Positions 3,323 to 24,400 are shown, numbered from the stretch's first letter. The stretch: DNA of 26,144 nucleotides from a virus (IMGVR_UViG_3300010401_000032:1-26144); one strand, 5' to 3'. Made by a program: numbers and translations. Notes: generated by a model from the letters alone, not told the origin.

Positions 3323-3332
3323 TACGTATAAT
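3305..3332 (+). promoter_or_regulatory. Sigma-70-type promoter
   Basis: CTGACA-16-TATAAT; GAGG RBS before ATG 3349. Confidence 0.6.
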
Positions 3333-3348
3333 ACCGAAGAGGTATCAT

Positions 3349-3597
3349 ATGTACAGAATGCGTTACGCATACGAAGTTAGCGTTAAAAAGGGTGTCGTAT
3401 CTATTTCCGAGCCGCTTGGAATTGAAAAACCCGAACAGCTTAAGATTGCTGGACTTACAAAGTCGGCCCTTAGGCACTGGGTCAAAGAAAAAGTTAAACA
3501 AAATCCTACTTTAGTCGATTCTTCTTTGATTGTTCGTTCTAAGTATACTGAGACGTCTCACGGCATCGCCTTAGAGTTTAAAATCGCCAATGGATGA
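3349..3597 (+). CDS. Hypothetical protein
   Basis: 82-aa ORF with promoter and RBS. Confidence 0.7.
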   Translation: MYRMRYAYEVSVKKGVVSISEPLGIEKPEQLKIAGLTKSALRHWVKEKVKQNPTLVDSSLIVRSKYTETSHGIALEFKIANG

Positions 3598-12618: not shown

Positions 12619-12631
12619 GTCCGATTCTACT

Positions 12632-12920: not shown

Positions 12921-12924
12921 CTAA

Positions 12925-13193: not shown

Positions 13194-13241
13194 GGGGACA
13201 TCGAGCTACTAATGGGGTTGAGAATTACCCCCGGTATTGTT

Positions 13242-13472: not shown

Positions 13473-13478
13473 AGTATC

Positions 13479-13507
13479 AGTATATCCAATAAACGTAACA
13501 GACGCAA
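13479..13507 (-). promoter_or_regulatory. Leaderless sigma-70 promoter
   Basis: TTGCGT-17-TATACT-6nt-ATG. Confidence 0.75.
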
Positions 13508-13572
13508 GCAAGAAGTGTTGGAAATAGTAATATTACAAAGAATAGAAGAAGCTTGGAAATGAGATATTTCAT

Positions 13573-13646
13573 AAAAAAGGGGACCTATCCTTTGTGCGTG
13601 GGCAGTTTAGATAGGTCCCCGATGCGGCTTCACGCCAACTTCTCTC
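13573..13646 (-). ncRNA. Candidate ~75-nt sRNA
   Basis: Own promoter TTGACT(13680)-16-TATACT(13653); ends in an 11-bp GC stem with 20-nt loop plus U6; no ORF. Confidence 0.55.
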
Positions 13647-13668
13647 GATGACAGTATATACTATCCTG

Positions 13669-14010
13669 TCATCGAGTCAAGAATCTCTTCATTTGTTCCA
13701 TCGAAGCTTGGATGTTTTTGCATCCAACGGGATTCGCAGAATGAATCGACCACTTTAGAGGATACAGAATAATACCTGGACCAGAGCCATGGCGATCAAC
13801 GAAAGCCATCATTTCCAGGAACTTTGCGACATCGTATCCCGTGCCTCGATCTTCGCCGAGATCATGATCGAAGCTAATCCATTCGATCGACTCACGATTG
13901 AGCCAGAGAAGACCGATACACTCTTTCGCCGTTCGGCAAATGGTCCAACCCTCATCCTTCTCGCCTTCGAGGTAGGACGGATTACGGATATCGTCGAGCC
14001 AAATCTTCAT
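13669..14010 (-). CDS. Cyclic-phosphate processing receiver-domain protein
   Basis: MKIWLDDIR.P, ISFDHDLG..RGTGYDV, IHSANPVG..NI signature; TAATG-coupled start 14010. Confidence 0.85.
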   Translation of the reverse strand: MKIWLDDIRNPSYLEGEKDEGWTICRTAKECIGLLWLNRESIEWISFDHDLGEDRGTGYDVAKFLEMMAFVDRHGSGPGIILYPLKWSIHSANPVGCKNIQASMEQMKRFLTR

Positions 14011-14177
14011 TATGCAGTCCCCAGATTTTGTCCTGTCAGTTTCTTCCAATTGAAAGCAATCCACCTACGGCAGCCACGATGAATGACATTGCCGTCCTTT
14101 AGGATTACAAACTCAGAACCAAATCTATTGAGGCCAATCCAATCGGCCCGCAGATTGTTGAACTCGGAAACGATCAT
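14010..14177 (-). CDS. 55-aa hypothetical protein MIVSEFNNLRADW...
   Basis: Not in track; promoter TTGGAA(14213)-16-TATAAT(14186) ends 8 nt before ATG; coupled to the receiver gene. Confidence 0.65.
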   Translation of the reverse strand: MIVSEFNNLRADWIGLNRFGSEFVILKDGNVIHRGCRRWIAFNWKKLTGQNLGTA

Positions 14178-14202
14178 AGTATTTCATTATACTATTTCCA
14201 GC

Positions 14203-14475
14203 CTACTTTCCAAATTCTCTTACAATCTCCTTACATGTCTGAATGTCCTCGATTTCGAGGGGTCCGGACAGATCGGCGAGCTTGGAAATGAAGAGCTTAG
14301 AAATGGCGTGTTTGTTCTTCCATTCCGTGTCTTGACCTAGAACGTGCGAAAGGTCGCAGATCGTTCTCATGTGTTCACAGAACTGAAACACGATGCCTGA
14401 CAGGTTGCACCCGTTTTGGACGAGTAGTGCATCCCGTGCGGCATCGGCATACCGCTTCTTCATGGCCGTATCCAT
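14203..14475 (-). CDS. 90-aa hypothetical protein MDTAMKKRYADAARDALLVQNGCNLSG...
   Basis: C-terminal part of track ORF 14203..14994; true start fixed by the leaderless promoter. Confidence 0.7.
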   Translation of the reverse strand: MDTAMKKRYADAARDALLVQNGCNLSGIVFQFCEHMRTICDLSHVLGQDTEWKNKHAISKLFISKLADLSGPLEIEDIQTCKEIVREFGK

Positions 14476-14481
14476 GGCTGG

Positions 14482-14510
14482 ATTGTAACACAGTGCGATA
14501 GCTCTGTCAA
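14482..14510 (-). promoter_or_regulatory. Leaderless sigma-70 promoter
   Basis: TTGACA-17-TACAAT-6nt-ATG. Confidence 0.8.
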
Positions 14511-14524
14511 TTCGGAAACGTAAT

Positions 14525-14553
14525 TTGCCGTGCAAGAGTTTATGCACTATTCT
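14525..14553 (+). promoter_or_regulatory. Divergent sigma-70 promoter
   Basis: TTGCCG-17-TATTCT; GTGCA-N8-TGCAC in the spacer. Confidence 0.65.
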
Positions 14554-14601
14554 AGGGCACCTTAGGCAATGGAGCCTAAAAACCACAATCAGGAGTGCAT
14601 C

Positions 14602-14745
14602 ATGGTCAACACCCTCAAGATTCAAGCGATCGAGCAAGGTACGACCCTCCAGGAACTCGTGTCCGAGATCCTCGGACGGGCTGGCATCGCTCGCCCGCGT
14701 GGACGCCCGAGGGGCCGCCGGCCCGCGACCGAGCAAGCTCAGTAG
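14602..14745 (+). CDS. 47-aa ribbon-helix-helix-like protein with C-terminal AT-hook
   Basis: MVNTLKIQAIEQGTTLQELVSEILGRAGIARPRGRPRGRRPATEQAQ; AGGAG RBS; not in track. Confidence 0.7.
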   Translation: MVNTLKIQAIEQGTTLQELVSEILGRAGIARPRGRPRGRRPATEQAQ

Positions 14746-14789
14746 TCGTCCCGGGTTCGGGAATTCGAAGGGCAAGCCAAGGAATTGGC

Positions 14790-14817
14790 TTGCTCTTTCG
14801 TCACTACCTACTATTAT
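14790..14817 (+). promoter_or_regulatory. Leaderless sigma-70 promoter
   Basis: TTGCTC-16-TATTAT-6nt-ATG; CCTAC/GTAGG arms flank the -10. Confidence 0.65.
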
Positions 14818-14823
14818 GTAGGC

Positions 14824-15009
14824 ATGGCACACAAGCTCGCTCACTTCTTCCCCTCCATCCTTACAGACCACAAAAATAGGAGCTATCTTGTAATTCAATT
14901 TACGGATGGTAGGGGCGAGCTTCAAATGGATATGAGAATTCCACTGTACCAAAACGATCCGGGGGCCGTCAAAGACGACCCCCGAGATCAGCAAACGAGC
15001 GTAACCTAG
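14824..15009 (+). CDS. 61-aa hypothetical protein MAHKLAHFFPSILT...
   Basis: Track frame 14785; start fixed by the leaderless promoter. Confidence 0.55.
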   Translation: MAHKLAHFFPSILTDHKNRSYLVIQFTDGRGELQMDMRIPLYQNDPGAVKDDPRDQQTSVT

Positions 15010-15011
15010 CG

Positions 15012-15176
15012 TTACGCAACGAGCCGCAGAATAGCCTTATGCACCGCCTCGTTGAGGTTGATGCCTTGGGCCGCTGCGAACTTCTTGACCAAATTCTTGG
15101 TCGAAGTGGGGATCCGAACGCCAAGAACGGACGTTTGGATGTTGAACGTGGACGGACGACCGAGCTTAGTAGCCAT
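15012..15176 (-). CDS. Ribbon-helix-helix DNA-binding protein with N-terminal GRP motif
   Basis: LGVRIPTSTKNLVKKFAAAQGINLNEAVHKAI RHH pattern; AAGGAG RBS. Confidence 0.78.
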   Translation of the reverse strand: MATKLGRPSTFNIQTSVLGVRIPTSTKNLVKKFAAAQGINLNEAVHKAILRLVA

Positions 15177-15197
15177 TTGCGATTCTCCTTTAGTAAT

Positions 15198-15250
15198 ACT
15201 AGAAACCATATCTAGTGGGAGGAGTATAGCACGGCCGGACCCGTTTACAA
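15198..15250 (-). promoter_or_regulatory. Promoter and 5' hairpin for the RHH gene
   Basis: TTGTAA-16-TATACT (extended TG); ACTAGA-N7-TCTAGT starts at the predicted +1. Confidence 0.65.
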
Positions 15251-15262
15251 GTTACGGGACAG

Positions 15263-15514
15263 TCATTTTGCGAACGGCAAGGAAGAATACGTCCATTCTT
15301 GACTTACCGTCCGGCCGTAGCCGTTCCAGTGCTCCAGGAGCCTATAAAGACTTCGCTCATCGAAGACTTGGACGTAACTCGTGCCCGTACGACCTGTCTT
15401 GTGATGCTTCCAATAGTACGGCACGCTGACCATACCCTTGGGGATGTCCTGCTGTCGAGTAGCCCGAGCGTAGTTCACTCCGGCCTCGTACAGGATGGGC
15501 TCTTCGTAATTCAA
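15263..15514 (-). CDS. Hypothetical protein
   Basis: Track start 15547; TTG 15514 (TTGA overlap, SD AAGGA upstream) preferred. Confidence 0.6.
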   Translation of the reverse strand: MNYEEPILYEAGVNYARATRQQDIPKGMVSVPYYWKHHKTGRTGTSYVQVFDERSLYRLLEHWNGYGRTVSQEWTYSSLPFAK

Positions 15515-15960
15515 TTGCCGCCCTTTTCCTTTTGTGAAAGGATCCATTCTCTAACTTGAGCCGGCGGACCCTTGACGAGGCTATTCCAACCAAAGTCAAG
15601 AATCTCAATCGAGAGAGAACAAGCCTCGTCAACGCTCACGATATAGACGTACTCTTCGCCAACATCCTTTGTGCCAGCCGGCTCAAGGTAGAAGTTCCCC
15701 ACCGATGTCCGGGCCGCCGTGTGCTTAGTCTTCGGATGGCTTCGCTTCAAACGTGCAACGATTTGAGCCGCGAGACACCCGGCTCCATTTGCCACGTTTT
15801 TATCTTCGTAGGAACTAATACCGTTTGTGATTCTGAAAGGCAGAAGGAAATCCACAAGTTCCAATCCGTGACCCTCGGGATAACCGTCCATTTGACGATA
15901 GAGGGTGAGGATATCTGCCCCACTTTCATTACGCACAATTGTAAGCGATCGAGTATCCAT
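15511..15960 (-). CDS. Conserved phage protein (YRxxDGYP motif)
   Basis: LYRQMDGYPEGHG...GCLAAQ...EEYVY is a recurrent phage hypothetical family. Confidence 0.75.
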   Translation of the reverse strand: MDTRSLTIVRNESGADILTLYRQMDGYPEGHGLELVDFLLPFRITNGISSYEDKNVANGAGCLAAQIVARLKRSHPKTKHTAARTSVGNFYLEPAGTKDVGEEYVYIVSVDEACSLSIEILDFGWNSLVKGPPAQVREWILSQKEKGGN

Positions 15961-15962
15961 GA

Positions 15963-16190
15963 TTATGTCTTTCTAAATCGTGGTAGTTGACGGATCCAGG
16001 AATTGTCGCCTTCTTCATATCGGATATCAGCATACAGCCGCAGAAATGCGGGAGCGTCGATATCTTGCTCTAAATAGAGATACTTGCCCGATTGCCGGCT
16101 GTACGGCGAAATCTTTAGCCCTACCCGCTTGGCTTCTGATAGCGGGACCTCAAGCCATGCACGGCCCGAGTCTGCGAGGAGGCGGAACAT
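15963..16190 (-). CDS. Conserved phage/plasmid small protein (DPGHGWL-like)
   Basis: ADSGRAWLEVP...ISPYS...YLYLEQDIDA. Confidence 0.7.
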   Translation of the reverse strand: MFRLLADSGRAWLEVPLSEAKRVGLKISPYSRQSGKYLYLEQDIDAPAFLRLYADIRYEEGDNSWIRQLPRFRKT

Positions 16191-16192
16191 GG

Positions 16193-16345
16193 CTATTCGC
16201 CAAAATAGCGAGCCATCGCCTCAAGCTCTTCGCCGCTAGGCGGCGGGACCCCGGGAATGTCCTCCCAAGCGTCCGCAGGAGCTTCCACGCTGGCCCAAAG
16301 GTCCGCCTTGATGATCGCTGCCTCGCCTTGTTCGGTGTTCTTCAT
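16193..16345 (-). CDS. 50-aa acidic hypothetical protein MKNTEQGEAAII...
   Basis: Not in track; leaderless start. Confidence 0.65.
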   Translation of the reverse strand: MKNTEQGEAAIIKADLWASVEAPADAWEDIPGVPPPSGEELEAMARYFGE

Positions 16346-16351
16346 GAATGT

Positions 16352-16379
16352 ATTATACATCATGCGGCCGAATAGGCAA
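16352..16379 (-). promoter_or_regulatory. Leaderless sigma-70 promoter
   Basis: TTGCCT-16-TATAAT-6nt-ATG. Confidence 0.8.
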
Positions 16380-16387
16380 GTAATATT

Positions 16388-16540
16388 CTAGATAAATCTC
16401 ACCCACCAACATTTACACGCTCTTCGTGTGCATCGAAAATACCACGCTACATTTCCAAGCCATATAATAGGATCACCGAAAGATGTCTTTCTCTCGTGCT
16501 TGGCAAAACGATGCTGGCATTTAGGACAAGTGGATATCAT
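16388..16540 (-). CDS. 50-aa Zn-ribbon-like protein
   Basis: CPKC...CTRRAC; ATGA-coupled start 16540. Confidence 0.6.
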   Translation of the reverse strand: MISTCPKCQHRFAKHERKTSFGDPIIWLGNVAWYFRCTRRACKCWWVRFI

Positions 16541-16824
16541 ACTGGCAACTTCGGAAATACACCGAATGCCTGAAAGCACCGAACGTGTGCATTTATCATG
16601 CTTGGAAAAGGACCCAGGAGATCCTCGTCATTGCTTCGAATGAACCAGTTATCTCCACGCCTAGCAATCTGATATTCGGGGCCGTGCGAATGCAGTATGG
16701 TAACAACGTCGATATCAGAAAGCTTCATATGATTACAGTCTCCGCAAGAATCGGGCTGCCCACAATCGGGACAAAGCTCATCTTCGGGATAATCCCACTT
16801 GCGTCCGTATCGATCGGTGCTCAC
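16537..16824 (-). CDS. Cys-rich hypothetical protein
   Basis: CPDCGQPDSCGDCNH; ATGA-coupled. Confidence 0.7.
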   Translation of the reverse strand: MSTDRYGRKWDYPEDELCPDCGQPDSCGDCNHMKLSDIDVVTILHSHGPEYQIARRGDNWFIRSNDEDLLGPFPSMINAHVRCFQAFGVFPKLPV

Positions 16825-17177
16825 AATTGCTCTTCGATGATGTCGGCAATCTTTTCGAATGGGATGCCGTTGTCATTGAGATCTGAAAGAGTACCAGCCC
16901 AAGATTCTTCCATTTCGTAATCGATACTTGGATCACAATCAACTAGGCCGGCCCAAGCTTGGACTTCCTCGGGTAGATAATCCCCTTCCTCTAAATAAGT
17001 GCATGGGGAACCATCTACTTCGAACATCCGCCACTTATTGCCAGTTTCCTCAGCATGCAATGCACAAAGGACGCCGAGACAGCAATATCCATTGGCATTC
17101 TTTAGGGCACGATCGGTCTGCTGAAACATGCCACTTCGAAGTGCGGCCGTCCATCTAGACTTGACTTGCAGCTTCAA
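16821..17177 (-). CDS. Conserved phage protein (YCCLGV motif)
   Basis: WTAALRSG.FQQ...YCCLGVLC...LSDLNDNG.PF.KIADIIE; TTG 17177 with GAGG preferred over 17201. Confidence 0.75.
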   Translation of the reverse strand: MKLQVKSRWTAALRSGMFQQTDRALKNANGYCCLGVLCALHAEETGNKWRMFEVDGSPCTYLEEGDYLPEEVQAWAGLVDCDPSIDYEMEESWAGTLSDLNDNGIPFEKIADIIEEQL

Positions 17178-17377
17178 ATTATGATTCCTCGGATTTCCCA
17201 CTTGTTACTGGGGAAGAACTCATGATCCTCATACAGACCCTTGTAGAATCGAGCCTTGTCCGCTGAATCCCACAGTTTCACTACATTGGGATTAGAAGTA
17301 GTATACCATTCCTTAGTTCTCTCGTCAACTGCGATATACTGATCTTTTCCAGCTTTGAAATAGAAAAGTTCTTTCAC
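17174..17377 (-). CDS. Hypothetical protein
   Basis: GTGA-coupled 67-aa ORF. Confidence 0.65.
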   Translation of the reverse strand: MKELFYFKAGKDQYIAVDERTKEWYTTSNPNVVKLWDSADKARFYKGLYEDHEFFPSNKWEIRGIII

Positions 17378-17547
17378 GAGAACATCCCCAATTGTTGGAC
17401 GGCAGAAACTTGGATGCGAGCCTTGTTGCCCGGCTTAGCCCGATTGTACTTGGCGAGCCACACTACGCAATCGCCGTAGTTCGCCTTGTCGTCGGTTTCG
17501 GTGGACCGGTAGAGGAGCAGGCCGTTCTCGACAACCTCGTAGCTCAT
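17374..17547 (-). CDS. 57-aa hypothetical protein MSYEVVENGLLLYRS...
   Basis: Not in track; leaderless start; coupled to the next gene. Confidence 0.7.
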   Translation of the reverse strand: MSYEVVENGLLLYRSTETDDKANYGDCVVWLAKYNRAKPGNKARIQVSAVQQLGMFS

Positions 17548-17553
17548 GACTCC

Positions 17554-17581
17554 ATTATAGCATGTATTGCATGCTAGTCAA
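17554..17581 (-). promoter_or_regulatory. Leaderless sigma-70 promoter with palindromic spacer
   Basis: TTGACT-16-TATAAT-6nt-ATG; TAGCATG-N5-CATGCTA. Confidence 0.85.
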
Positions 17582-17584
17582 ATA

Positions 17585-18139
17585 CTATCCAGGAAACTCG
17601 GCCTCTTGCTTTACCTTTACCGCCATCGTTTCGGGCAGATCGTGGAGGAGCAGATAGACCTCGCCCCCGAATGAGAGACTCCGGATCGAGTCCAGTGCGT
17701 AATCCCGAACGAGAATTTCCTTCTCCGTTTCCTGCCGGCTGGACTTGCTCCGGGCCGGGAGATACGGGGCGACTTGCTCTTCCGTCAACATGGTGCCATC
17801 GGCCGCGAAATAGGTATGATTGAGACTCTTCTCAACCTTCGTTTCCAAATACAGTTTGTCATTATGTTCAACAAACATCGTGCCCGGAACTCGCCGGCCC
17901 CACTGGCGGGGATCCGCTTCGAAGTCACCTTCCGAACCTTCCCGCAAACGCTGCCGATTGACCGCGTTCTCATACTGGAATCCGAGGCAAACATTGACGC
18001 GAGACAACTTGCGGACTTGGCCGTAAGGATTGCCAGTCTTCTTGAGTCTGGCGTCCGTGTCCGTGCAAATCGTGGCGAACGTCGCTCCCTTGATGCTGAG
18101 GAGCAGGGTGACGAGATTGTCTTTGGAGATGACCTTCAT
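17585..18139 (-). CDS. Conserved phage hypothetical protein
   Basis: 184 aa; GATFATI...KKTGNPY...YENAVN...WG..V...FVEH..KLYLE; AAGGA RBS. Confidence 0.78.
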   Translation of the reverse strand: MKVISKDNLVTLLLSIKGATFATICTDTDARLKKTGNPYGQVRKLSRVNVCLGFQYENAVNRQRLREGSEGDFEADPRQWGRRVPGTMFVEHNDKLYLETKVEKSLNHTYFAADGTMLTEEQVAPYLPARSKSSRQETEKEILVRDYALDSIRSLSFGGEVYLLLHDLPETMAVKVKQEAEFPG

Positions 18140-18155
18140 AGCTCTTCGCTTTCCT

Positions 18156-18202
18156 TATGGCGTCTGAACGCCATAGTATACCATATCGCTCTTCGCTGTC
18201 AA
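18156..18202 (-). promoter_or_regulatory. Sigma-70 promoter with palindrome across +1
   Basis: TTGACA-16-TATACT (extended TG), then TATGGCGT-N4-ACGCCATA. Confidence 0.8.
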
Positions 18203-18208
18203 GTCAAT

Positions 18209-18718
18209 CTAGGGGCATTTATTGTGTCGATACCCACGGCCGCCCAACGCCAGATTCTCATTGTGCCTTTTGAGTCTAATCGGACTCAACATGATCGATT
18301 GGCCACACGTGCCACACGCGGCGGGAGTCATTACCACCTTTCGCTTGAAAGCTTCGGCGACCTCCAGAGTATGGCACCGCTCGCCATTGCCACCTAGGCG
18401 AATATGCATTGCTTGCCACGCTTCGCCGTGATCGATTTTGCGACCCGTAGGACCCCGGAAGGGCGGGGCCAGAATATGGGCAAATTCGTGCGTGACGGTA
18501 TTGTAGAAATCGTCCGCAAAGTTAGTTTCATCGGCGTAGAATGGCAGTGAAAGCTTTACGATTTTACTTAGGCACTTGGCTTTACCAGCGGCCTCAGTCA
18601 TCCGAGTAGAAATCTCTATCCGAATTTGACGAAGTACCGGCCCCAAATCAGGGTGTTTGATAGCGAGTACGTCACGAATACAATAGGCTTCGTGGAGTAA
18701 ATCTTGTGCGGACTTCAT
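18209..18718 (-). CDS. SprT-like zinc metalloprotease
   Basis: AAGKA, TVTHEFAHI, HGEAWQ, CH, CGTC motifs. Confidence 0.85.
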   Translation of the reverse strand: MKSAQDLLHEAYCIRDVLAIKHPDLGPVLRQIRIEISTRMTEAAGKAKCLSKIVKLSLPFYADETNFADDFYNTVTHEFAHILAPPFRGPTGRKIDHGEAWQAMHIRLGGNGERCHTLEVAEAFKRKVVMTPAACGTCGQSIMLSPIRLKRHNENLALGGRGYRHNKCP

Positions 18719-18720
18719 GG

Positions 18721-18930
18721 CTATTTGCTACACTTACAGTCTTCGAAAGCACCTTCTGAATGGCCAGCAGATTCAATAGATGCATAGAATATCTTGCCAT
18801 CGAATCGATACGGTCTGACGTAACGAAGTCCACCTTCGGGGTCCGGTTGCTTGGGCTTCGGATTCCCGCATGCGACGTATGCGTCACGCACGGCCCTTTC
18901 GTGGGCCAATCGCTTTTGCCATTCTTCCAT
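18721..18930 (-). CDS. 69-aa hypothetical protein
   Basis: Leaderless start. Confidence 0.7.
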   Translation of the reverse strand: MEEWQKRLAHERAVRDAYVACGNPKPKQPDPEGGLRYVRPYRFDGKIFYASIESAGHSEGAFEDCKCSK

Positions 18931-18936
18931 GGTTTC

Positions 18937-18965
18937 ATTATAGCATATTACTATATGCTAGTCAA
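18937..18965 (-). promoter_or_regulatory. Leaderless sigma-70 promoter with palindromic spacer
   Basis: TTGACT-17-TATAAT-6nt-ATG; TAGCATAT-N4-ATATGCTA. Confidence 0.85.
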
Positions 18966-18981
18966 GACCCTTACATAAGTA

Positions 18982-19269
18982 TTACTTTACGTAAAGTGCA
19001 ATTGTTCTCTTTACGTTTTCCAGCGTTCGAACCATCGCTGCCGTATCTTCCGATTTGAGCCGAATGTAAATCGCTGGACCAAACATCCCATCATAATTTA
19101 CTTCACAAACTCCATCAATTCTAGAAAGAATAGAAGTCAATGTTGCGGGATAAGCGTATGTCCCAGTCGTAGTCTTGTATAGATCGACGGAATCCCTATC
19201 TAGTATTTTGAAGAACTGTTCTTTAGCAATCTCGATGCAGTAGGAGCGTTCGGTTTCGGTTACTTTCAT
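18982..19269 (-). CDS. Hypothetical protein
   Basis: 95 aa; start preceded by the GAAGA hairpin. Confidence 0.7.
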   Translation of the reverse strand: MKVTETERSYCIEIAKEQFFKILDRDSVDLYKTTTGTYAYPATLTSILSRIDGVCEVNYDGMFGPAIYIRLKSEDTAAMVRTLENVKRTIALYVK

Positions 19270-19278
19270 AGCTCTTCG

Positions 19279-19539
19279 CTAGGGGATCCATTGAGTTAGA
19301 CAAATTCTATTTCCAGGCTGAACCGTATACAGGAATCCAGCATAGCGGCTTCCGCGATTGTATTCGTCTACCCAAGGACGCGGGGTAAAGTAATTTGCAG
19401 AGCTACAGGACTCACCCTTTGCGAAGGCAGGCACCGCACGACTATTCCACAAATTCCAAATGTCGGAAGTCCAGATAGCTTCCTTGGAATTGATGCACGT
19501 TCGCATGGCCACTCGCCTAATTTTTACAAGGCTTGCCAT
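19279..19539 (-). CDS. Hypothetical protein
   Basis: 86-aa ORF; start may be ATG 19506. Confidence 0.55.
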   Translation of the reverse strand: MASLVKIRRVAMRTCINSKEAIWTSDIWNLWNSRAVPAFAKGESCSSANYFTPRPWVDEYNRGSRYAGFLYTVQPGNRICLTQWIP

Positions 19540-19601
19540 GATATCGATTCCGCCCGCAGTCGGGGCAAAAACTGAATCGTCTACTCCAGGCTTCTAGGAC
19601 G

Positions 19602-20036
19602 CTAGCTAGCCACTGGAGAAGAATCGCTATCGGCTCCAGCGTCCGAGCTTTCATCTTCCACATACGAGCTACGACCTTTCTTGCCACTGGTCACAGTATA
19701 CCCTCGCTGTTGCAATACTCCAATAAGAAAGTCGTCCTTTTGTGACTGCAACAGCGAAGTTACATGATCCTTTACTTGTTGGCAAGCTCCTTCAATTGCA
19801 ACGATCATGGCTTCGACCGCAATTCCTTCCCCCATGGGAATCGGATCGCCGATAGCCTCATCGAGGTAAGCCTTGGCCGCGTCCGTGAGCGTAGGATAAT
19901 GCTTCTCGGGATTACGCCACTTGGATTGTTTTGCCTGTCCGGCAAACCTCCCGCGTTCGATGGTCTCGCCGCCTTCTTGCCACTCTTGGATGGACCAATT
20001 GTAGGCATCGGATCTGATAATTCGCCTCTTCGGCAT
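19602..20036 (-). CDS. Hypothetical protein
   Basis: 144 aa; AAGGA RBS and GAAUA hairpin at the start. Confidence 0.75.
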   Translation of the reverse strand: MPKRRIIRSDAYNWSIQEWQEGGETIERGRFAGQAKQSKWRNPEKHYPTLTDAAKAYLDEAIGDPIPMGEGIAVEAMIVAIEGACQQVKDHVTSLLQSQKDDFLIGVLQQRGYTVTSGKKGRSSYVEDESSDAGADSDSSPVAS

Positions 20037-20038
20037 AG

Positions 20039-20209
20039 CTATTCGCTTTCCTTGATTTCGATTGAATCTTGTTCAACTTCACAAAAATCAGTAGCTTCGC
20101 AAGTGCCCATATCGCCATCATCGAACATTTCTAGGGCTTCTTCCTTGCTTGCAGCTTCGATAATTGTGTAATATCCCTGGATTTCTGTCCAGTCAATTCG
20201 GTATTTCAT
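20039..20209 (-). CDS. 56-aa acidic protein MKYRIDWTEIQGYYTIIEAASKEEA... (DpnD/PcfM-like pattern)
   Basis: Not in track; ATGA-coupled. Confidence 0.7.
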   Translation of the reverse strand: MKYRIDWTEIQGYYTIIEAASKEEALEMFDDGDMGTCEATDFCEVEQDSIEIKESE

Positions 20210-20367
20210 AGCTCTTCGCTATTCCCTTCAAGGACTACCGACAGTATACTACGAAACGTCCGCAAGTCAATTTGATTCTGCTTTATCCACATCCATACTA
20301 AATTCATACGTTCGTATGGACCGGGCTCTTCTCTGAGCCTTTGAATGCATTCGGGCAGAGTCTTCAC
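20206..20367 (-). CDS. 53-aa hypothetical protein
   Basis: Track frame 20442; GTG 20367 immediately after the upstream stop preferred. Confidence 0.55.
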   Translation of the reverse strand: MKTLPECIQRLREEPGPYERMNLVWMWIKQNQIDLRTFRSILSVVLEGNSEEL

Positions 20368-20368
20368 A

Positions 20369-20641
20369 CTAGCGGTAGTCGTTATCTTCCCAGTTGTCCG
20401 GATCGTCCGCGTCCGTAAACTCCTCGAACCGTACCGGTTCAAGGATGACGGGGGCAGCTACTTCTCTACGTTCGCCGTTTCTTACTTCCACTAACGACAA
20501 TCTATAATTGCCGCTATTACGTCGTTCGTATTCTAGGACTTGGAATGGATCGCCTTCGCTTGGCATGACCGCCGAGTGATAGTGCCGGCCGTCCATGATC
20601 TCATGTAGGATAAAGTTTTCGTGCTCTTTAGGTTTACTCAT
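20369..20641 (-). CDS. Acidic hypothetical protein
   Basis: 90 aa; promoter 9 nt upstream. Confidence 0.7.
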   Translation of the reverse strand: MSKPKEHENFILHEIMDGRHYHSAVMPSEGDPFQVLEYERRNSGNYRLSLVEVRNGERREVAAPVILEPVRFEEFTDADDPDNWEDNDYR

Positions 20642-20643
20642 TT

Positions 20644-20679
20644 ACGCTACATTATAGCGTCAGTCCATTTGCCAGTCAA
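20644..20679 (-). promoter_or_regulatory. Sigma-70 promoter, -10 inside a palindrome
   Basis: TTGACT-17-TATAAT; ACGCTA-N5-TAGCGT around the -10. Confidence 0.8.
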
Positions 20680-20944
20680 TCTTTTTCTCGGAACTTTCAT
20701 TTCCAAGGTCAGAATCTTCAACTACATAGAGTTTATTTTTGATTCTAACGTAGCATGTTCCCGCGTTACTAATTTGATAGGTTAGCATCCGTCGCCATCG
20801 CCCGAGCACATAGAGCATTCTGTGCGACCGAAACATCCCGTATTCCTTTGGGTTCCTTCCTAGGTACGTGTCCCACTTCCAGGGTACGGGCTTTCCCGTG
20901 ATGCTTCGAAGTGTTAGCATTTGAATTAGTTTGCCAGCTTCCAA
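20660..20944 (-). CDS. Hypothetical protein
   Basis: 94 aa, TTG start. Confidence 0.55.
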   Translation of the reverse strand: MEAGKLIQMLTLRSITGKPVPWKWDTYLGRNPKEYGMFRSHRMLYVLGRWRRMLTYQISNAGTCYVRIKNKLYVVEDSDLGNESSEKKIDWQMD

Positions 20945-21111
20945 TAGGATTTAGGAACGTCGTTTTTGGCAATATGTATCATTAGTGCCAATTCGATACA
21001 ACGCCTACAGTCCTCAGGCGTATGCAATCCTCGCTTTTTCAATTCTTGCCATTCCGAGCACAATTGCAGAAAGCGGCGTTTTGCGAATTGCTTTAGGGTC
21101 ATGCCTTCCAT
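20926..21111 (-). CDS. 61-aa hypothetical protein
   Basis: Promoter TTGACT(21146)-16-TATAAT(21119), 7 nt before ATG. Confidence 0.65.
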   Translation of the reverse strand: MEGMTLKQFAKRRFLQLCSEWQELKKRGLHTPEDCRRCIELALMIHIAKNDVPKSYWKLAN

Positions 21112-21126
21112 ACGTTTTATTATACC

Positions 21127-21477
21127 CTAATGGAGGGGATAGTCAACCGTTTTCACAGACTTATCCCAGCACGCTCTACAATCCTGGCAGTTATTATTTT
21201 GTTGACGGGCGGGGCATTTGAAGTGAATGATTTTCGCCATGCCGTTTGCCCATTCCCGAACGTCGAATTGGACAATCGCCAATCGCCGGTATTGAGCTTT
21301 CTGTACGCACGGGAATACATACATTCCTTTCAAAGCGTAACACTTACTGCAAACGCTTCCGATTTTCTTTCTCAGGATTGCCCCGATGATACAAGCCTTT
21401 GCCGGTAGCCCATAGGCAAATCCCGGCATTTTAGAAGGCTTGGAAAGGCCGCCAACCAGTACGTCTAATCTTCCCAT
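21127..21477 (-). CDS. Gp88-like (mycobacteriophage gene 88 family) Cys-rich protein, apparently internally shortened
   Basis: GGLSKPSKMPG.AYGLPA..C..G..L....GSVCSKCYALKG.Y and CPA..Q...CQDCRACWD..V..V.Y.LH; start ATG 21477. Confidence 0.7.
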   Translation of the reverse strand: MGRLDVLVGGLSKPSKMPGFAYGLPAKACIIGAILRKKIGSVCSKCYALKGMYVFPCVQKAQYRRLAIVQFDVREWANGMAKIIHFKCPARQQNNNCQDCRACWDKSVKTVDYPLH

Positions 21478-21572
21478 TTTACCAGCACATAAACGTAACA
21501 AAGGAAAATAATGACGACTAGGAAAACAAGGCACTGCCCAATTTGACGGAAGAAACGTATGATTGGACGCAT
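21465..21572 (-). CDS. 35-aa membrane microprotein MRPIIRFFRQIGQCLVFLVVIIFLCYVYVLVKWED
   Basis: C-terminal part of track ORF 21465..21680; basic then hydrophobic. Confidence 0.5.
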   Translation of the reverse strand: MRPIIRFFRQIGQCLVFLVVIIFLCYVYVLVKWED

Positions 21573-21624
21573 TGCGTCAATCAAATCATCTTCTCTACCG
21601 TACTGAGCAAAGGGGACGTAAACG

Positions 21625-21658
21625 CTAGGCGGGGCACCGCGAACGCTGCCCCGCCTAG
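21625..21658 (-). terminator. GC-rich hairpin, probable terminator
   Basis: CTAGGCGGGGCA-N10-TGCCCCGCCTAG downstream of the RHH gene. Confidence 0.55.
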
Positions 21659-21721
21659 AGCCAACCGTATTTGAGGACATGGAGACAGTCTACCCTATAC
21701 TGGGTATCCCGTCAACCGTTC

Positions 21722-21940
21722 TCAGCGAGTAGCTTCCTTGAATCCACGCTGAATCAGTTGATCCAGGGCTTGATTGATGTTGATCTCGCGGTCGGTCGCA
21801 AACTTGCGAACCATTTGCCGGGTCGAACGCGGAACGTGAGCCTGGAACGGCACCGTTTCGACATTGCCGAACGAAGACGGGCGACCGGGGCCGGCGGCGG
21901 GAGCGGACTTGACTTTGCGGGTAGCGGTAGCATTGCTCAT
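21722..21940 (-). CDS. Ribbon-helix-helix protein with GRP motif (paralog of 15012-15176)
   Basis: GRPSSF...FQAHVPRSTRQMVRKFATDREININQALDQLI; GGAG RBS. Confidence 0.78.
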   Translation of the reverse strand: MSNATATRKVKSAPAAGPGRPSSFGNVETVPFQAHVPRSTRQMVRKFATDREININQALDQLIQRGFKEATR

Positions 21941-21981
21941 ATGTTTCTCCAGATTGTTTGTTGGGCGGAATTGCCCGAAGT

Positions 21982-22009
21982 AATATAGCCTATTCTGCTA
22001 GGCTGTCAA
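21982..22009 (-). promoter_or_regulatory. Sigma-70 promoter with palindromic spacer
   Basis: TTGACA-16-TATATT; AGCCTA-N6-TAGGCT. Confidence 0.75.
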
Positions 22010-22333
22010 GGGAAAAAGAATCTTCTCAATCTCAGGCTTCAAAGCAGCTTCTACGTCCGATCGAGTCCACGCGGGATCCCCGTAGATCGGACGCGAAAGG
22101 CAATACCTGAGAAACTCAGTACGCTTTTCAGCATCCGAGAAATGATTTTCGTAGAACGTATCACGATTGTATTCGGCGATGTTACCGAACATGTTCGAAA
22201 GGTCCACGTAAAACCACTTGTAGAAAAGTGTCTTCGGGCATCCCTTCCTGTAGAATTGCAGGAAGTGCTTGAAAAGCTTTTCCTTGTGTTCTACAGAATA
22301 GAATTGCGTTGCCGTGAATTGAGGGGCATTCAT
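21998..22333 (-). CDS. Conserved hypothetical protein (FGxIAxYN motif)
   Basis: 111 aa, leaderless start. Confidence 0.75.
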   Translation of the reverse strand: MNAPQFTATQFYSVEHKEKLFKHFLQFYRKGCPKTLFYKWFYVDLSNMFGNIAEYNRDTFYENHFSDAEKRTEFLRYCLSRPIYGDPAWTRSDVEAALKPEIEKILFPLTA

Positions 22334-22339
22334 GGAAAC

Positions 22340-22367
22340 ATTATAGCCTATTCGGCAGGGGTTGCAA
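22340..22367 (-). promoter_or_regulatory. Leaderless sigma-70 promoter
   Basis: TTGCAA-16-TATAAT-6nt-ATG. Confidence 0.8.
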
Positions 22368-22401
22368 TGGGAAAACGAAAAAACTTTTTGAAGCTCTTCG
22401 C

Positions 22402-22429
22402 TTGACTAGCACGCAAGGCGTGCTATAAT
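22402..22429 (+). promoter_or_regulatory. Divergent sigma-70 promoter with palindromic spacer
   Basis: TTGACT-16-TATAAT; TAGCACGC-AAG-GCGTGCTA. Confidence 0.85.
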
Positions 22430-22435
22430 AAGGGC

Positions 22436-22585
22436 GTTCTTTGGTGCGAAAGCGTGTGCCATGGGAGGACGTCTCCAAGTCTGTGCCTCTATATGGGGCT
22501 AAGGACTAACATGGATTCGGGTTTACCGAGCCACCTAGCTGTAGGGTCATTGGCAGGAGTAACGAGCCAACATACAGTCAAAGAA
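22436..22585 (+). ncRNA. Candidate 150-nt structured RNA or structured 5' leader
   Basis: Predicted +1 starts a terminal helix GUUCUU/AAGAAC; several internal hairpins including a GAAA tetraloop; no ORF. Confidence 0.55.
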
Positions 22586-22598
22586 CACTAATACAATC

Positions 22599-22817
22599 AT
22601 GGAAACCACCGATCCTACAAAGTACCGCGTCACTTATATTTGTAAGTGTTCAGCGGATTATGCAGAAGGCTACGGGAATACTCCCGAGGAAGCCGAAGGT
22701 AAAGTAAAGGAATTCTGGAAAATCGGCGGACATAAGATTGCCGATATCGCCAGTCGAATTGTTGAGATTGCCGTTATGCATGGAAATGGCGGATCACATT
22801 ACGAGGAAGTTACTTGA
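22599..22817 (+). CDS. 72-aa hypothetical protein
   Basis: ORF track; protein-like composition; no SD. Confidence 0.65.
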   Translation: METTDPTKYRVTYICKCSADYAEGYGNTPEEAEGKVKEFWKIGGHKIADIASRIVEIAVMHGNGGSHYEEVT

Positions 22818-22841
22818 CTTCCAAGCTCAATGTGATATAGT
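22814..22841 (+). promoter_or_regulatory. Sigma-70 promoter into a non-coding region
   Basis: TTGACT-16-TATAGT, extended TG. Confidence 0.75.
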
Positions 22842-22847
22842 ATACCG

Positions 22848-23050
22848 TCCTAGCAAGAGAATCCGCGATTGGGACCTACCGTGTGGGTAGGATGGCCCCG
22901 CCCAATCCCGAGTAGCCGCCTTGAGCGGCGGGGCCGCTCCCGCCAGCCCGCATGGTCGCCCCGCCGTCACAGTAAGGCGAACTTGGATGAACCTGTGATT
23001 TTATTTTAGAAATTACAGTAAGGCGTATGCGGAGCCACCTGTAATTTGAA
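22848..23050 (+). ncRNA. Candidate ~200-nt GC-rich structured RNA with tandem 3' motif
   Basis: Nested stems 22864-22910, alternative GGCGGGG/CCCCGCC pairings, and two ACAG-TAAGGCG-N12-CCTGT stem-loops. Confidence 0.6.
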
Positions 23051-23114
23051 ATTTCACTTTGCTTGGAATGGTAAAATTCTAGATTCTGATTTCTAGATTT
23101 GACCCGGTATCTAT

Positions 23115-23154
23115 TTAAAGCAAAGAAGCCGGCGATTCTGGCAATCTGCCGGCT
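23115..23154 (-). terminator. Intrinsic terminator
   Basis: AGCCGGC...GCCGGCT hairpin followed by TCTTTGCTTT on the minus strand. Confidence 0.65.
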
Positions 23155-23169
23155 CCTCAAGTGTGGCGA

Positions 23170-23300
23170 AAGTCCAATGTTATTCTTCCGCTTCCTACCG
23201 TCAATACTCAGGCTGCGATTTTATCAACTGACCGGAATATCAACGGTCGTCAGTTGCGTTGTTCGCTCTTTCAAAGCACACTACGGCAGGCGTTCGACTG
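23170..23300 (-). ncRNA. Candidate structured RNA 3' of the HNH gene
   Basis: Multibranch fold whose G-U pairs and GAAA tetraloop form only on the minus strand. Confidence 0.45.
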
Positions 23301-23306
23301 TCGGGC

Positions 23307-23777
23307 TCATATTGGGTCAACCGAACGCCATGCTTTATAATTCACAATATCTGTAATTGTTGATTTGCCCACCCTGTAAAACTCGGCTATCGTTTTATGT
23401 TTTACTCCATTTGAAGCCATCTCACGTATTGATATAACTTTATCCCGCGAGAGTTTAGCAAACGGATTACTTTCTCCAAGATGTCTACCGTTTTTATGAC
23501 GACCTTTTCGCATCTTGTCACTTACATTATCTGCATTAGTGCCAAGAAACAAATGATCCGGTCGTACGCATGCACGATTGTCACACTTGTGGCAAACACA
23601 CATACCTTCTGGTATCGCACCAAAGTGTATAATCCATGCAATACGGTGGGCACGAACTGTTTTCTGATTGTAATAGAACTGGCCGTATCCCTTAGAATGT
23701 TTATTACCTATCCAATTCCAGCATTCGGCAGTTTTATCTACCCTTTCCCAGAATTTGTCGAGCGTAATTTGATCCAT
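23307..23777 (-). CDS. HNH (His-Me finger) homing endonuclease with C-terminal HTH
   Basis: CWNW.G....[29 protein letters not shown]; C-terminal NPFAKLS...HTH. Confidence 0.92.
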
Positions 23778-23790
23778 CAGACACGTTGAA

Positions 23791-23868
23791 TGGTGGCAGG
23801 GACGAGATTCGCACTCGTGGTCTCCTCCTTATGAGGGAGGCGTCGTAGCTAGACTGGACTACCCTGCT
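23791..23868 (-). tRNA. tRNA with CAU anticodon (Met/fMet/Ile2 unresolved), CCA encoded
   Basis: Full 78-nt cloverleaf: acceptor GCAGGG/CCCUGC, anticodon arm CCUCC-CUCAUAA-GGAGG, T arm ACGAG-UGCGAAU-CUCGU, 3' ACCA. Confidence 0.9.
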
Positions 23869-23874
23869 AATTAT

Positions 23875-23903
23875 ATTATATCTCAAAGAACAAGGAAAGT
23901 CAA
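23875..23903 (-). promoter_or_regulatory. Sigma-70 promoter for the tRNA
   Basis: TTGACT-17-TATAAT; predicted +1 equals tRNA nucleotide 1. Confidence 0.85.
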
Positions 23904-23939
23904 CACTATTCCAAGTTTTTGGCGATTAATCACAACTTT

Positions 23940-24007
23940 GCTTTAAAAAGCAGGCCGGCGACCACGGCCAGTCGTGACTAATTTGGGCTCGTCAATTCCC
24001 TTCCGCG
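23940..24007 (-). ncRNA. Candidate ~65-nt sRNA
   Basis: Promoter TTGACA(24042)-17-TACTAT(24014); GGCCG/CGGCC hairpin plus UGCUUUUU; no ORF. Confidence 0.45.
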
Positions 24008-24102
24008 ACCAGTATAGTACACCAAGACGCCTGAGTTGTCAAGATTTTTCTTTTTTAAGCTCCACACTTGACAAACTACTAAACCTACGCTATAGTAAGA
24101 GA

Positions 24103-24150
24103 CATCTTGTCGCACCTGAAACTTAGAGGCTAAGTAGCTGGCGACTTTTA
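24103..24150 (+). ncRNA. Candidate ~50-nt sRNA
   Basis: Promoter TTGACA(24068)-17-TATAGT(24096); GUCGC/GCGAC outer stem enclosing ACUUAG/CUAAGU, then UUUU. Confidence 0.45.
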
Positions 24151-24193
24151 CATTTCGCGAACCCAGATCTTACAACCATTCCAAGCAAAAAAG

Positions 24194-24221
24194 TTGCCCG
24201 TCCTTTAGGACGAGCTATAAT
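24194..24221 (+). promoter_or_regulatory. Sigma-70 promoter with palindromic spacer
   Basis: TTGCCC-16-TATAAT-8nt-ATG; CGTCCT-TT-AGGACG. Confidence 0.8.
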
Positions 24222-24229
24222 AAACACCC

Positions 24230-24400
24230 ATGAAGACATACATAGCCAGCATGATACGAGTGACCATTCTTTTTGCCCTTCTACGGGTATTTGGGGAGGC
24301 GACTGAGACGGCACTTATCATGGTGTTTGGATGGGAGATACTGAATAGGGCATGCGAGATAAAGGATATTGTGGCGGCGGCAAAAGAAAGTAAAGTTTAG
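24230..24400 (+). CDS. 56-aa membrane microprotein MKTYIASMIRVTILFALL...
   Basis: Not in track; promoter-proximal; paralog at 24615. Confidence 0.7.
   Translation: MKTYIASMIRVTILFALLRVFGEATETALIMVFGWEILNRACEIKDIVAAAKESKV

What the first reader, a model, noticed from the sequence alone, without database searches (positions are those of the whole stretch)
16190..22403. Covarying boxB-like GAAGA/GAAUA pentaloop hairpins at start codons
Seen (minus strand): AGC-GAAGA-GCU-AUG (18139), UAGC-GAAGA-GCUA-UG (19269), AUAGC-GAAGA-GCUAU-G (20209), AGC-GAAUA-GCU-AUG (20036), UGGC-GAAUA-GCCA-UG (16190; compensatory pair). Further copies: AAGC-GAAGA-GCUU (22391) and plus-strand AUACC-GAAGA-GGUAU before ATG 3349. 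It persists in coding and non-coding contexts, and only loop position 4 varies. Established: lambda boxB is a GAAGA/GAAAA pentaloop with an extruded 4th base, bound by Arg-rich N. Inference: an undescribed protein-RNA switch for translation initiation or antitermination.
Basis: partly seen in the sequence, partly recalled or inferred. Interest (0 to 1): 0.78.

Follow-up and report, generated by a model that had tools for sequence, protein, structure and literature searches.

The report
Repeated start-codon motif in phage early genes
A 14-base word (AGCGAAGAGCUAUG) really does sit on the start codon of seven small early genes of this uncultured 161-kb soil phage, but it behaves as a strain-specific, swappable ribosome-start and gene-junction cassette, not as a conserved, covarying boxB-like protein switch.

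Summary
GCGAAKAGC occurs 8 times in the window against 0.4 expected, and 19 times in the 161-kb phage against 0 for the backwards control. Eighteen of the 19 copies are sense to transcription. Seven are followed, after one base, by the ATG of a real gene.

The boxB reading does not hold:
- **Structure class.** Outside the GC..GC word family, GAAGA and GAATA hairpins occur at chance frequency. The plus-strand copy at 3336 scores at chance level.
- **Covariation.** It rests on one pair (AU 10, GC 3, unpaired 2) among copies related by descent.
- **Loop position 4.** In the window it changes only where U creates the upstream gene's TAG stop.
- **nut-site features.** No sense-strand boxA, no excess of terminators and no plausible arginine-rich partner were found.
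- **Conservation.** Relatives at 59-76% protein identity lack the word and start the same genes leaderless. Strains at 90-95% DNA identity gain, lose or swap it, often together with the adjacent gene.

Best reading (about 0.5): a lineage-specific start-associated cassette (SD-like AAGGA, small hairpin, AUG). It supplies translation starts for early genes that are not leaderless, and it doubles as a recombination linker. It resembles the SAS motifs of cluster K mycobacteriophages, T4 split ribosome sites and PeSL cassettes.

This scan has reported start-linked hairpin repeats in other phages, but not this word.

The parts
18137..18150 (-). Canonical copy AGC-GAAGA-GCU-AUG at the start of the 184-aa gene 17585-18139. 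It lies in a roughly 35-nt leader behind promoter 18202-18175 and is preceded by AAGGA.
   Evidence: the 94%-identical strain L030 has the same gene leaderless, without leader or motif
19267..19281 (-). Canonical copy UAGC-GAAGA-GCUA-UG at the start of the 95-aa gene 18982-19269. The upstream TAG stop lies in the 5' stem.
   Evidence: present in L046, replaced by TAG-TG-ATG in L032
20034..20047 (-). AGC-GAAUA-GCU-AUG at the start of the 144-aa gene 19602-20036. The loop U makes the TAG stop of the upstream gene. It differs by one base from the 18139/40037 cassette.
   Evidence: in L032 the same cassette (GUU variant) heads an extra 49-aa gene; in L046 the junction is TAG-TAA-ATG
20207..20222 (-). 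AUAGC-GAAGA-GCUAU-G at the start of the 56-aa gene 20039-20209, preceded by GAAGGGA. The upstream ORF ends in an ATGA overlap.
   Evidence: L032 keeps it (A to G, still G.U); in L046 the variant GAAAA/GCC heads a different 51-aa gene
16188..16202 (-). Variant UGGC-GAAUA-GCCA-UG at the start of the 75-aa gene 15963-16190. The TAG stop lies in the loop.
   Evidence: same in L030; L047/L048 have GGC-GAGUA-GCC-AUG followed by an extra 64-aa gene, then a canonical UAGC-GAAGA-GCUA-UG before the orthologue
18716..18729 (-). Degenerate junction AGC-AAAUA-GCC-AUG at the start of the SprT-like gene 18209-18718. The third pair is A.C, unpaired.
   Evidence: L032 has GGC-AAAUA-GCC here behind a different upstream gene
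16224..16234 (-). In-coding copy GGC-GAAGA-GCU inside gene 16193-16363 (codes G-E-E-L); not at a start.
   Evidence: L030 has TAGC-GAAGA-GCTA and L047 has GGCGAAGAGT at the same place
18188..18196 (-). Copy of GCGAAGAGC inside the spacer of the sigma-70-type promoter 18202-18175; unexplained.
   Evidence: a second promoter with the word in its spacer lies at genome 27094
22391..22402 (-). AAGC-GAAGA-GCUU in the divergent promoter region, with no start codon after it. The 11-nt core is an indel between strains.
   Evidence: L046 has tcaag-GG-aaaaag here
3331..3351 (+). AUACC-GAAGA-GGUAU, then 3 nt, then ATG 3349. It is part of a longer hairpin that also pairs the AUG and is probably unrelated to the family.
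   Evidence: covariance model score 13.4 bits, E 1.6; non-family GAAGA hairpins are at chance frequency

Best explanation
The motif is a lineage-specific start-associated cassette, not a conserved structured RNA family. Its fullest form is AAGGA-A-AGC-GAAGA-GCU-AUG-AAA.

It is transcribed in the sense orientation. It is placed so that the upstream reading frame stops inside it (TAG in the 5' stem, TAG in the loop, or TGA overlapping the AUG), and the next gene starts immediately after it. In an early region where most operons begin with leaderless genes (-10 box, about 6 nt, ATG), it supplies the translation start for several genes that are not leaderless. These include two promoter-proximal genes with real leaders and several internal cistrons.

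Inferred mechanism: ribosomes that terminate in the cassette, or that bind the SD-like AAGGA just 5' of it, start at the adjacent AUG. The 3-5-bp hairpin (-2.6 to -5.7 kcal/mol) folds the 11-12 nt between AAGGA and AUG out of the way, as in the split ribosome sites of T4 genes 25 and 38.

Because 14-22-nt identical copies lie at many junctions, the cassette also acts as a recombination linker. It and the genes beside it are copied, lost and exchanged between sister strains.

Shown: placement, strand bias, nucleotide-level identity independent of frame, turnover between strains, and absence from more distant relatives. Inferred: the effect on initiation, the role of the hairpin, and the copying mechanism.
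For: - Enrichment and exact placement at ATG, and sense-strand bias of 18/19.
- The upstream stop falls in three different registers, and in two copies loop and 3' stem are non-coding. The conservation is therefore not due to a peptide.
- Copies fall into sub-families identical over 22 nt (18139/40037/20036 and 19269/55998), which indicates copying rather than convergence.
- An SD-like AAGGA, AAGGGA or GGAAGG lies 0-1 nt 5' of the stem in 4 of 7 genome copies and in the L047 copy. Late genes of the phage use canonical SD in about 37% of starts, so the host reads SD.
- The hairpin is predicted to form in most local contexts.
- Of three leadered early promoters, two use this cassette; about nine others are leaderless.
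- Interchangeability: orthologues of the 184-aa gene are leaderless in L030 (94% DNA identity over the gene) and in relatives at 59-70% protein identity. The 19269 copy is replaced by TAGTGATG in L032.
- Gene-sized swaps in L032, L046 and L047 begin or end exactly at the ATG behind the motif.
- Precedents read here: SAS motifs (PMC3203893), T4 split ribosome sites (PMC3014915) and PeSL cassettes (PMC2839356).
Against: - No expression data exist, so an effect on translation is inferred from position only.
- Three of seven copies have no SD-like stretch upstream.
- With the hairpin closed, only 0-1 nt plus the helix width separates AAGGA from the AUG, which may be too tight.
- Copies that cannot serve a start exist: two in promoter spacers (18196, 27094), 22401, and in-frame coding copies.
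- The genes do without the motif in sister strains, so any benefit is small or replaceable.
- L046 and the 18718 junction carry an unpaired A.C in the stem.
Confidence: 0.5

Rival explanations
1. RNA operator. The GNRNA-type pentaloop hairpin that abuts or includes the AUG is bound by a phage or host protein. That protein shuts off (or turns on) a small regulon of early genes together. This would be a RegA- or MS2-coat-like translational switch that uses a boxB-like structural key.
For: - Sense-strand bias and position on the AUG.
- All loops in the genome's start copies and most strain variants fit G-N-R-N-A (GAAGA, GAAUA, GAGUA, GAAAA), and position 4 is the most variable.
- Both single stem changes in L032 keep pairing through G.U.
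- One pair shows AU/GC alternation; 13/500 shuffles reach the observed value.
Against: - Stems are 3 bp in 4 of 7 copies.
- Copies are related by descent, so the pair statistics are inflated. Unpaired A.C variants exist, and one loop is AAAUA.
- In the window, variation at position 4 is explained by the need for a TAG stop.
- No candidate binder was found: no RegA family hit (control silent) and no arginine-rich motif in a credible gene.
- The word is missing from relatives that keep all the target genes, and it is lost at single genes between sister strains.
Confidence: 0.15
2. Neutral or selfish short repeat. The word spreads by short-patch gene conversion or template switching between junctions that share a few flanking bases. 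It is tolerated at gene boundaries and has no function of its own.
For: - The 9-11-nt core is a presence/absence polymorphism at 19270-19278 and at 22391-22401, the latter not at a start.
- A possible 12-nt in-frame insertion lies in gene 56156-57226.
- Copies occur in promoter spacers.
- The word is restricted to one strain cluster.
Against: - Seven of about 12 non-coding or boundary copies sit in one exact register with an ATG, and 5 of those 7 are followed by AAA or AAG. Pure drift does not predict this.
- The bias is sense-strand only.
- The alleles that lack the word are not simple deletions of it.
Confidence: 0.2
3. DNA-level site. GCGAAGAGC is the target of a DNA-binding protein (an operator within or near promoters), and the link to start codons arises because promoters and starts are only a few bases apart in this leaderless region.
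For: Two sigma-70-type promoters carry the word in their spacer (18188-18196; genome 27094, heading the Y-RNA/Ro60 locus), and one copy lies between divergent promoters (22391-22402). AGC-N5-GCT is a partial palindrome.
Against: - The start-linked copies are mostly internal to operons, far from promoters.
- The fixed register is with the ATG, not with -35/-10 boxes.
- A strict orientation bias (18/19) is unexpected for a near-palindromic operator.
Confidence: 0.07

Closest known systems
Start-associated sequences (SAS) of cluster K mycobacteriophages (Pope et al. 2011, PMC3203893)
   Same: Both are short asymmetric words with symmetric outer bases (GGG..CCC there, AGC..GCU here). Both are repeated in one orientation directly upstream of start codons, with a strong preference for ATG. 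Both occur in non-structural genes of unrelated families, and the upstream stop sometimes lies inside the word. The function is unproven in both, with translation initiation suspected.
   Different: SAS is GGGATAGGAGCCC. It contains the AGGAG Shine-Dalgarno core, lies 3-7 bp before the start, has roughly 15 copies per genome (93 sites across the genomes studied) and is conserved across three subclusters. The word here has no SD core inside it and abuts the ATG. It has 7 start copies and is confined to one strain cluster.
Split ribosome-binding sites of T4 genes 25 and 38 (Nivinskas et al. 1999; Malys and Nivinskas 2009; reviewed in PMC3014915)
   Same: A small hairpin between an SD and a distant AUG brings the two to a working distance. 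It is confined to close relatives and absent from more distant ones. Here AAGGA lies 12 nt from the AUG, with an 11-nt hairpin between, in 4 of 7 copies.
   Different: The T4 cases are single genes with longer stems and mutational proof. Here there is a repeated 3-5-bp hairpin, three copies have no SD-like stretch, and there are no experiments.
PeSL cassettes (promoter-early stem-loops) of T4-type phages (Arbiol et al. 2010, PMC2839356; Comeau et al. 2014, PMC4122927)
   Same: Both are short conserved regulatory words repeated among small non-essential early genes, and insertions, deletions and replacements between close relatives begin and end at them (here).
   Different: A PeSL is a sigma-70 promoter plus a terminator hairpin, a transcription unit boundary. 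This word is a translation-start and stop junction of 14-22 nt with no promoter of its own.
Lambda nut sites (boxA + boxB) with N protein
   Same: The loop sequence GAAGA equals that of lambda nutL boxB (my own knowledge), a G-N-R-N-A pentaloop on a GC-closed stem in early transcripts.
   Different: There is no sense-strand boxA. Stems are mostly 3 bp rather than 5. Seven copies sit on start codons rather than one per operon in a leader. Terminator-like sites are at chance level, and no N-like protein was found.
T4 RegA translational operators (PMC3014915)
   Same: One factor could act on many early messages through sites that overlap or abut the AUG.
   Different: RegA sites are A+U-rich and unstructured. 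No RegA family match was found in this phage (with a silent control).

Membership tests
lambda-type nut site (boxB/boxA with N) | GNRNA-type pentaloop on the hairpin | tested here: met
   The genome's start copies have GAAGA or GAAUA loops. The strain variants GAGUA and GAAAA also fit; AAAUA at 18718 does not.
lambda-type nut site (boxB/boxA with N) | stable stem of about 5 bp, kept by compensatory change | tested here: not met
   Stems are 3 bp in 4 of 7 copies, 4 bp in 2 and 5 bp in 1. Only one pair alternates AU/GC, and 2 of 15 variants are unpaired there.
lambda-type nut site (boxB/boxA with N) | boxA (YGCTCTTWA-like) a few bases upstream on the same RNA | tested here: not met
   There is one match in the window, on the opposite strand and at chance level.
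lambda-type nut site (boxB/boxA with N) | one site per early operon, in a leader ahead of terminators | tested here: not met
   Copies sit on start codons, three of them within 1 kb. Terminator-like sites number 19 against 16.8 expected.
lambda-type nut site (boxB/boxA with N) | arginine-rich N-type protein encoded nearby | tested here: inconclusive
   No window with 7 or more Arg in 18 residues lies in a credible early gene. The KRR N-terminus of the 144-aa protein is also present in relatives without the word.
Start-associated sequences (SAS) of cluster K mycobacteriophages | short asymmetric repeat, one orientation, directly before ATG of non-structural genes of different families | tested here: met
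Start-associated sequences (SAS) of cluster K mycobacteriophages | the word GGGATAGGAGCCC with an AGGAG core, 3-7 bp before the start | tested here: not met
   The word here is different, has no SD core inside it and has 0 nt spacing (paper read).
Start-associated sequences (SAS) of cluster K mycobacteriophages | conserved across the phage cluster at the same gene families | tested here: not met
   It is absent at orthologues and not enriched in five related genomes.
T4-type split ribosome-binding site | SD, then a hairpin, then AUG, with an SD-AUG distance too long unless the hairpin folds | tested here: inconclusive
   AAGGA-type stretch plus 11-12 nt plus AUG is present in 4 of 7 copies and in L047, and absent in 3. 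Folding is predicted.
PeSL cassettes | sigma-70 promoter plus terminator hairpin as one unit | tested here: not met
   The word carries no promoter or terminator.
PeSL cassettes | gene indels and replacements between close relatives bounded by the repeat | tested here: met
   L032, L046 and L047 compared with the window.
Host-derived REP-like palindromic repeat | many copies in bacterial chromosomes | tested here: not met
   The 20-mer has 0 matches and the 18-mer has 2 single matches in 596 Gb of prokaryote genomes.

The most novel reading that the evidence does not exclude
The small G-N-R-N-A pentaloop hairpin on the AUG is a true RNA operator. An unidentified phage or host protein reads the loop and, by closing or opening the start codon, switches seven early genes together. 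That would be a RegA-like regulon using a boxB-like structural key, recently spread through the genome by cassette copying.
Probability: 0.12. Interest if true: 0.6.

Novelty: new variant of a known kind. Interest (0 to 1): 0.3.

Why it matters
If the cassette works as proposed, it shows how a phage whose early genes are mostly leaderless equips the remaining genes with a portable start signal. It also shows the same short word serving as the seam along which early genes are exchanged between strains.

That adds a translation-level counterpart to the promoter-terminator cassettes (PeSLs) of T4-type phages, and a second, unrelated example of the unexplained start-associated sequences of mycobacteriophages.

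It is a modest, local feature. It is confined to one strain cluster of an uncultured phage, and its function is untested.

Tried and rejected
- **Rfam scan of the window** at E up to 1: only the tRNA matched.
- **Near-identical DNA in GenBank phages:** none.
- **Single-protein scans of viral contigs** with three proteins found no close relatives. An alignment-based scan was needed.
- **16-mer scan of IMG/VR:** 12 single matches. Most lie inside long ORFs, none is multi-copy, and the number is about what chance gives.
- **Host-derived repeat idea:** rejected.
- **Covariance model** built from 16 copies and variants. No match better than E 1.3 in 229 kb of related early regions, and the plus-strand copy at 3336 scored E 1.6.
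- **Phage promoter reading** (T7- or N4-type, starting at the ATG): no T7-like RNA polymerase family match, but the control was silent, so this is inconclusive. Two sigma-70-family genes exist, but the word lies too close to the ATG to hold their boxes.
- **Antisense RNA reading:** all near-matches of the reverse complement are the copies themselves.
- **Conserved C-terminal peptide of upstream genes:** rejected, because the stops fall in three registers.
- **Leaderless mini-ORF** (MAFRRHKESEEL) coupled to the 184-aa gene: considered unlikely. Its AUG lies at or before the expected transcript start and within a stem of about 8 bp.
- **Two further strain contigs** could not be fetched.


Full report
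**Setting.** The window is the first 26 kb of a complete 161,114-bp uncultured phage genome (IMG/VR record with terminal repeats). Bases 11-24 kb are a block of small minus-strand genes with about 50% G+C, against about 40% elsewhere. This block is full of near-consensus sigma-70-type promoters: 51 sites against 18.8 expected. In about nine of them the -10 box is followed by 6-9 nt and then ATG, so the first gene of most operons is leaderless. Almost all proteins here have no known family. One is SprT-like.

**Checking the observation.**
- All listed copies are present.
- GCGAAKAGC occurs 8 times in the window against 0.40 expected. It occurs 19 times in the genome against 0 for the backwards control. 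The 14-mer AGCGAAGAGCTATG occurs 5 times.
- Eighteen of 19 copies are sense to local transcription.
- Eight copies are followed by N-ATG, and seven of those ATGs open ORFs of 53-184 aa. They lie at 16190, 18139, 19269, 20036 and 20209 in the window, and at 40037 and 55998 further on. The eighth, at 101354, lies inside a long gene where the word codes Arg-Arg-Ala.
- Orthologues beginning at the same Met confirm five of the starts.

**Sequence family or structure class?**
- The copies form sub-families identical over 22 nt: AAGGAAAGCGAAGAGCTATGAA at 18139 and 40037 (20036 differs by one base), and CCCTAGCGAAGAGCTATGAAAG at 19269 and 55998. This is copying by descent.
- Once the GC..GC family is removed, hairpins with GAAGA or GAATA loops and three Watson-Crick pairs occur at chance frequency: 14 against 11.6 expected, and 12 against 11.0.
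- The plus-strand AUACC-GAAGA-GGUAU therefore needs no common explanation. A covariance model gives it 13.4 bits, E 1.6.
- On 16 copies and strain variants, the two inner pairs never vary except for one G.U. The third pair is AU 10, GC 3, unpaired 2. Thirteen of 500 shuffles reach the observed score, but the rows come from about three locus types, so this is weak.
- In the window, loop position 4 is U exactly where that U makes the TAG stop of the upstream gene (16190, 20036).
- The predicted hairpins are marginal, -2.6 to -5.7 kcal/mol, but they form in most local folds.

**What the word sits on.** In every start copy the upstream reading frame ends inside the word, in one of three registers: TAG in the 5' stem (19269, 55998), TAG in the loop (16190, 20036), or TGA overlapping the ATG (20209, 40037). 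At 18139 the only upstream frame is the doubtful 12-codon mini-ORF discussed under Tried and rejected. The conserved unit is therefore nucleotide sequence, not a peptide.

Two copies (18139, 20209) lie in real 33-35-nt leaders behind their own promoters. The others are internal junctions. An SD-like AAGGA or AAGGGA lies 0-1 nt before the stem in four of seven copies. Late genes of the phage use canonical SD in about 37% of starts against 5% in controls, so the host reads SD.

**Relatives.** The 184-aa protein has more than 120 metagenomic homologues.
- In relatives at 59-70% protein identity the gene is leaderless (-10 box, 6 nt, ATG), and more distant ones use GGAG.
- The word is not enriched in five related genomes, except perhaps mildly in one.
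- No model hit appears in 229 kb of their early regions.
- Orthologues of the 144-aa and 56-aa genes also have unrelated start regions, often leaderless.
- One relative (L009) has two copies of the 56-aa gene, each preceded by ACC-GAAGA-GGU six bases before the ATG. There the core again codes Glu-Glu of an overlapping upstream frame.

**Sister strains (88-95% DNA identity in the variable early stretch, up to 99.8% elsewhere) show rapid turnover.**
- *L030:* the 184-aa gene is leaderless, and the whole leader with the word is absent. The 16190 copy is kept.
- *L032:* the 19269 copy is replaced by TAG-TG-ATG. The 20209 copy is kept with A to G (still G.U). The 20036-type cassette (GCU to GUU) heads an extra 49-aa gene, while the 144-aa gene behind it uses GGGAG.
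- *L046:* a different 51-aa gene replaces the 56-aa gene. The swap starts at the ATG behind the word, which there reads AUAGC-GAAAA-GCCAU with an unpaired A.C, and ends at the next ATG. The 11-nt core at 22391-22401 is absent.
- *L047/L048:* an extra 64-aa gene follows GGC-GAGUA-GCC-AUG, and the orthologue of the 75-aa gene then carries a canonical UAGC-GAAGA-GCUA-UG behind GGAAGG.

The same gene can thus be served by the word, by a variant, by a plain stop-start junction or by a leaderless promoter. Gene-sized exchanges begin or end at the word.

**Interpretation.** The best reading is a portable start and junction cassette, as set out under Best explanation. It works like the SAS motifs of cluster K mycobacteriophages. 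In the copies with AAGGA it also works like the split ribosome sites of T4 genes 25 and 38. In its evolutionary behaviour it resembles PeSL cassettes. It is not a member of any of these families by sequence or composition.

The nut/boxB reading fails on boxA, stem length, copy number and position. No excess of terminators and no N-like protein were found. A RegA-like or coat-like operator cannot be excluded but has no positive support. No RegA family match was found, with a silent control.

**Left unexplained.** The word also occurs in the spacers of two promoters (18188-18196, and genome 27094 ahead of the Y-RNA/Ro60 locus). It is an indel at a site with no start codon (22391-22402). It may be a 12-nt in-frame insertion in gene 56156-57226. 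These fit short-patch copying of the word, or a second reader of it.

**Verdict.** This is a real and statistically solid repeat tied to translation starts. The covariation and boxB claims are not supported. It is a lineage-specific variant of known start-associated and regulatory-cassette phenomena, and its function is untested. Interest 0.3.

Noticed in passing
window 12800-24300, minus strand: About nine near-consensus sigma-70-type promoters have their -10 box 6-9 nt before an ATG (for example 22340/22333, 21687/21680, 18937/18930, 17554/17547, 16352/16345, 14482/14475). Most early operons therefore start leaderless. Orthologues in related phages keep this design.
   Followed up: partly
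window 23307-23777: An HNH endonuclease gene (PF13392) is missing from the 94%-identical strain contig L046, whose alignment jumps from window 23791 to 23323. It is probably a mobile homing-type gene.
   Followed up: no
window 23791-23868 (-) with promoter 23903-23875: A tRNA-Met (CAU) gene begins about 7 nt after a consensus -10 box, so it may be transcribed without a 5' leader.
   Followed up: no
window 18157-18174 (-): The leader of the 184-aa gene begins with a hairpin of about 8 bp (AUGGCGU..ACGCCAU) at the predicted 5' end of the mRNA, upstream of AAGGA and the motif. It could be a 5' stabiliser.
   Followed up: no
window 19537-19553 (-): Another junction of similar shape, TAG-GCGAGUGGCC-AUG (GGC-GAGUG-GCC directly before ATG 19539). 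L032 has GACCAGUGGCC there, which breaks that stem.
   Followed up: partly
L009 3740-3790 and 13430-13480: A related phage carries two copies of the 56-aa gene family (MRYRINWTE...). They share about 20 nt of upstream sequence, including ACC-GAAGA-GGU. One copy lies behind a leaderless ATG that is in frame with the gene.
   Followed up: partly
genome 56801-56809 (outside the window): The in-frame copy coding (E)KAKS in gene 56156-57226 coincides with a 4-residue gap in the 64%-identical orthologue of a related phage. The word may have been inserted into a coding sequence.
   Followed up: partly
genome 71335-71472 (+) and 109313-109504 (-): The phage has two sigma-70-family (region 2) genes, presumably for middle or late transcription.
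   Followed up: no
window 11000-24000 compared with the rest: The early block has about 50% G+C against about 40% for the rest of the genome. A codon model trained on the long genes scores the early genes poorly.
   Followed up: no
L047 compared with window 10007-16859: There is a sharp mosaic. The strain is 99.85% identical over window 10007-14619 but only 88-95% over 14611-16859, which indicates recent recombination between strains inside the early region.
   Followed up: no
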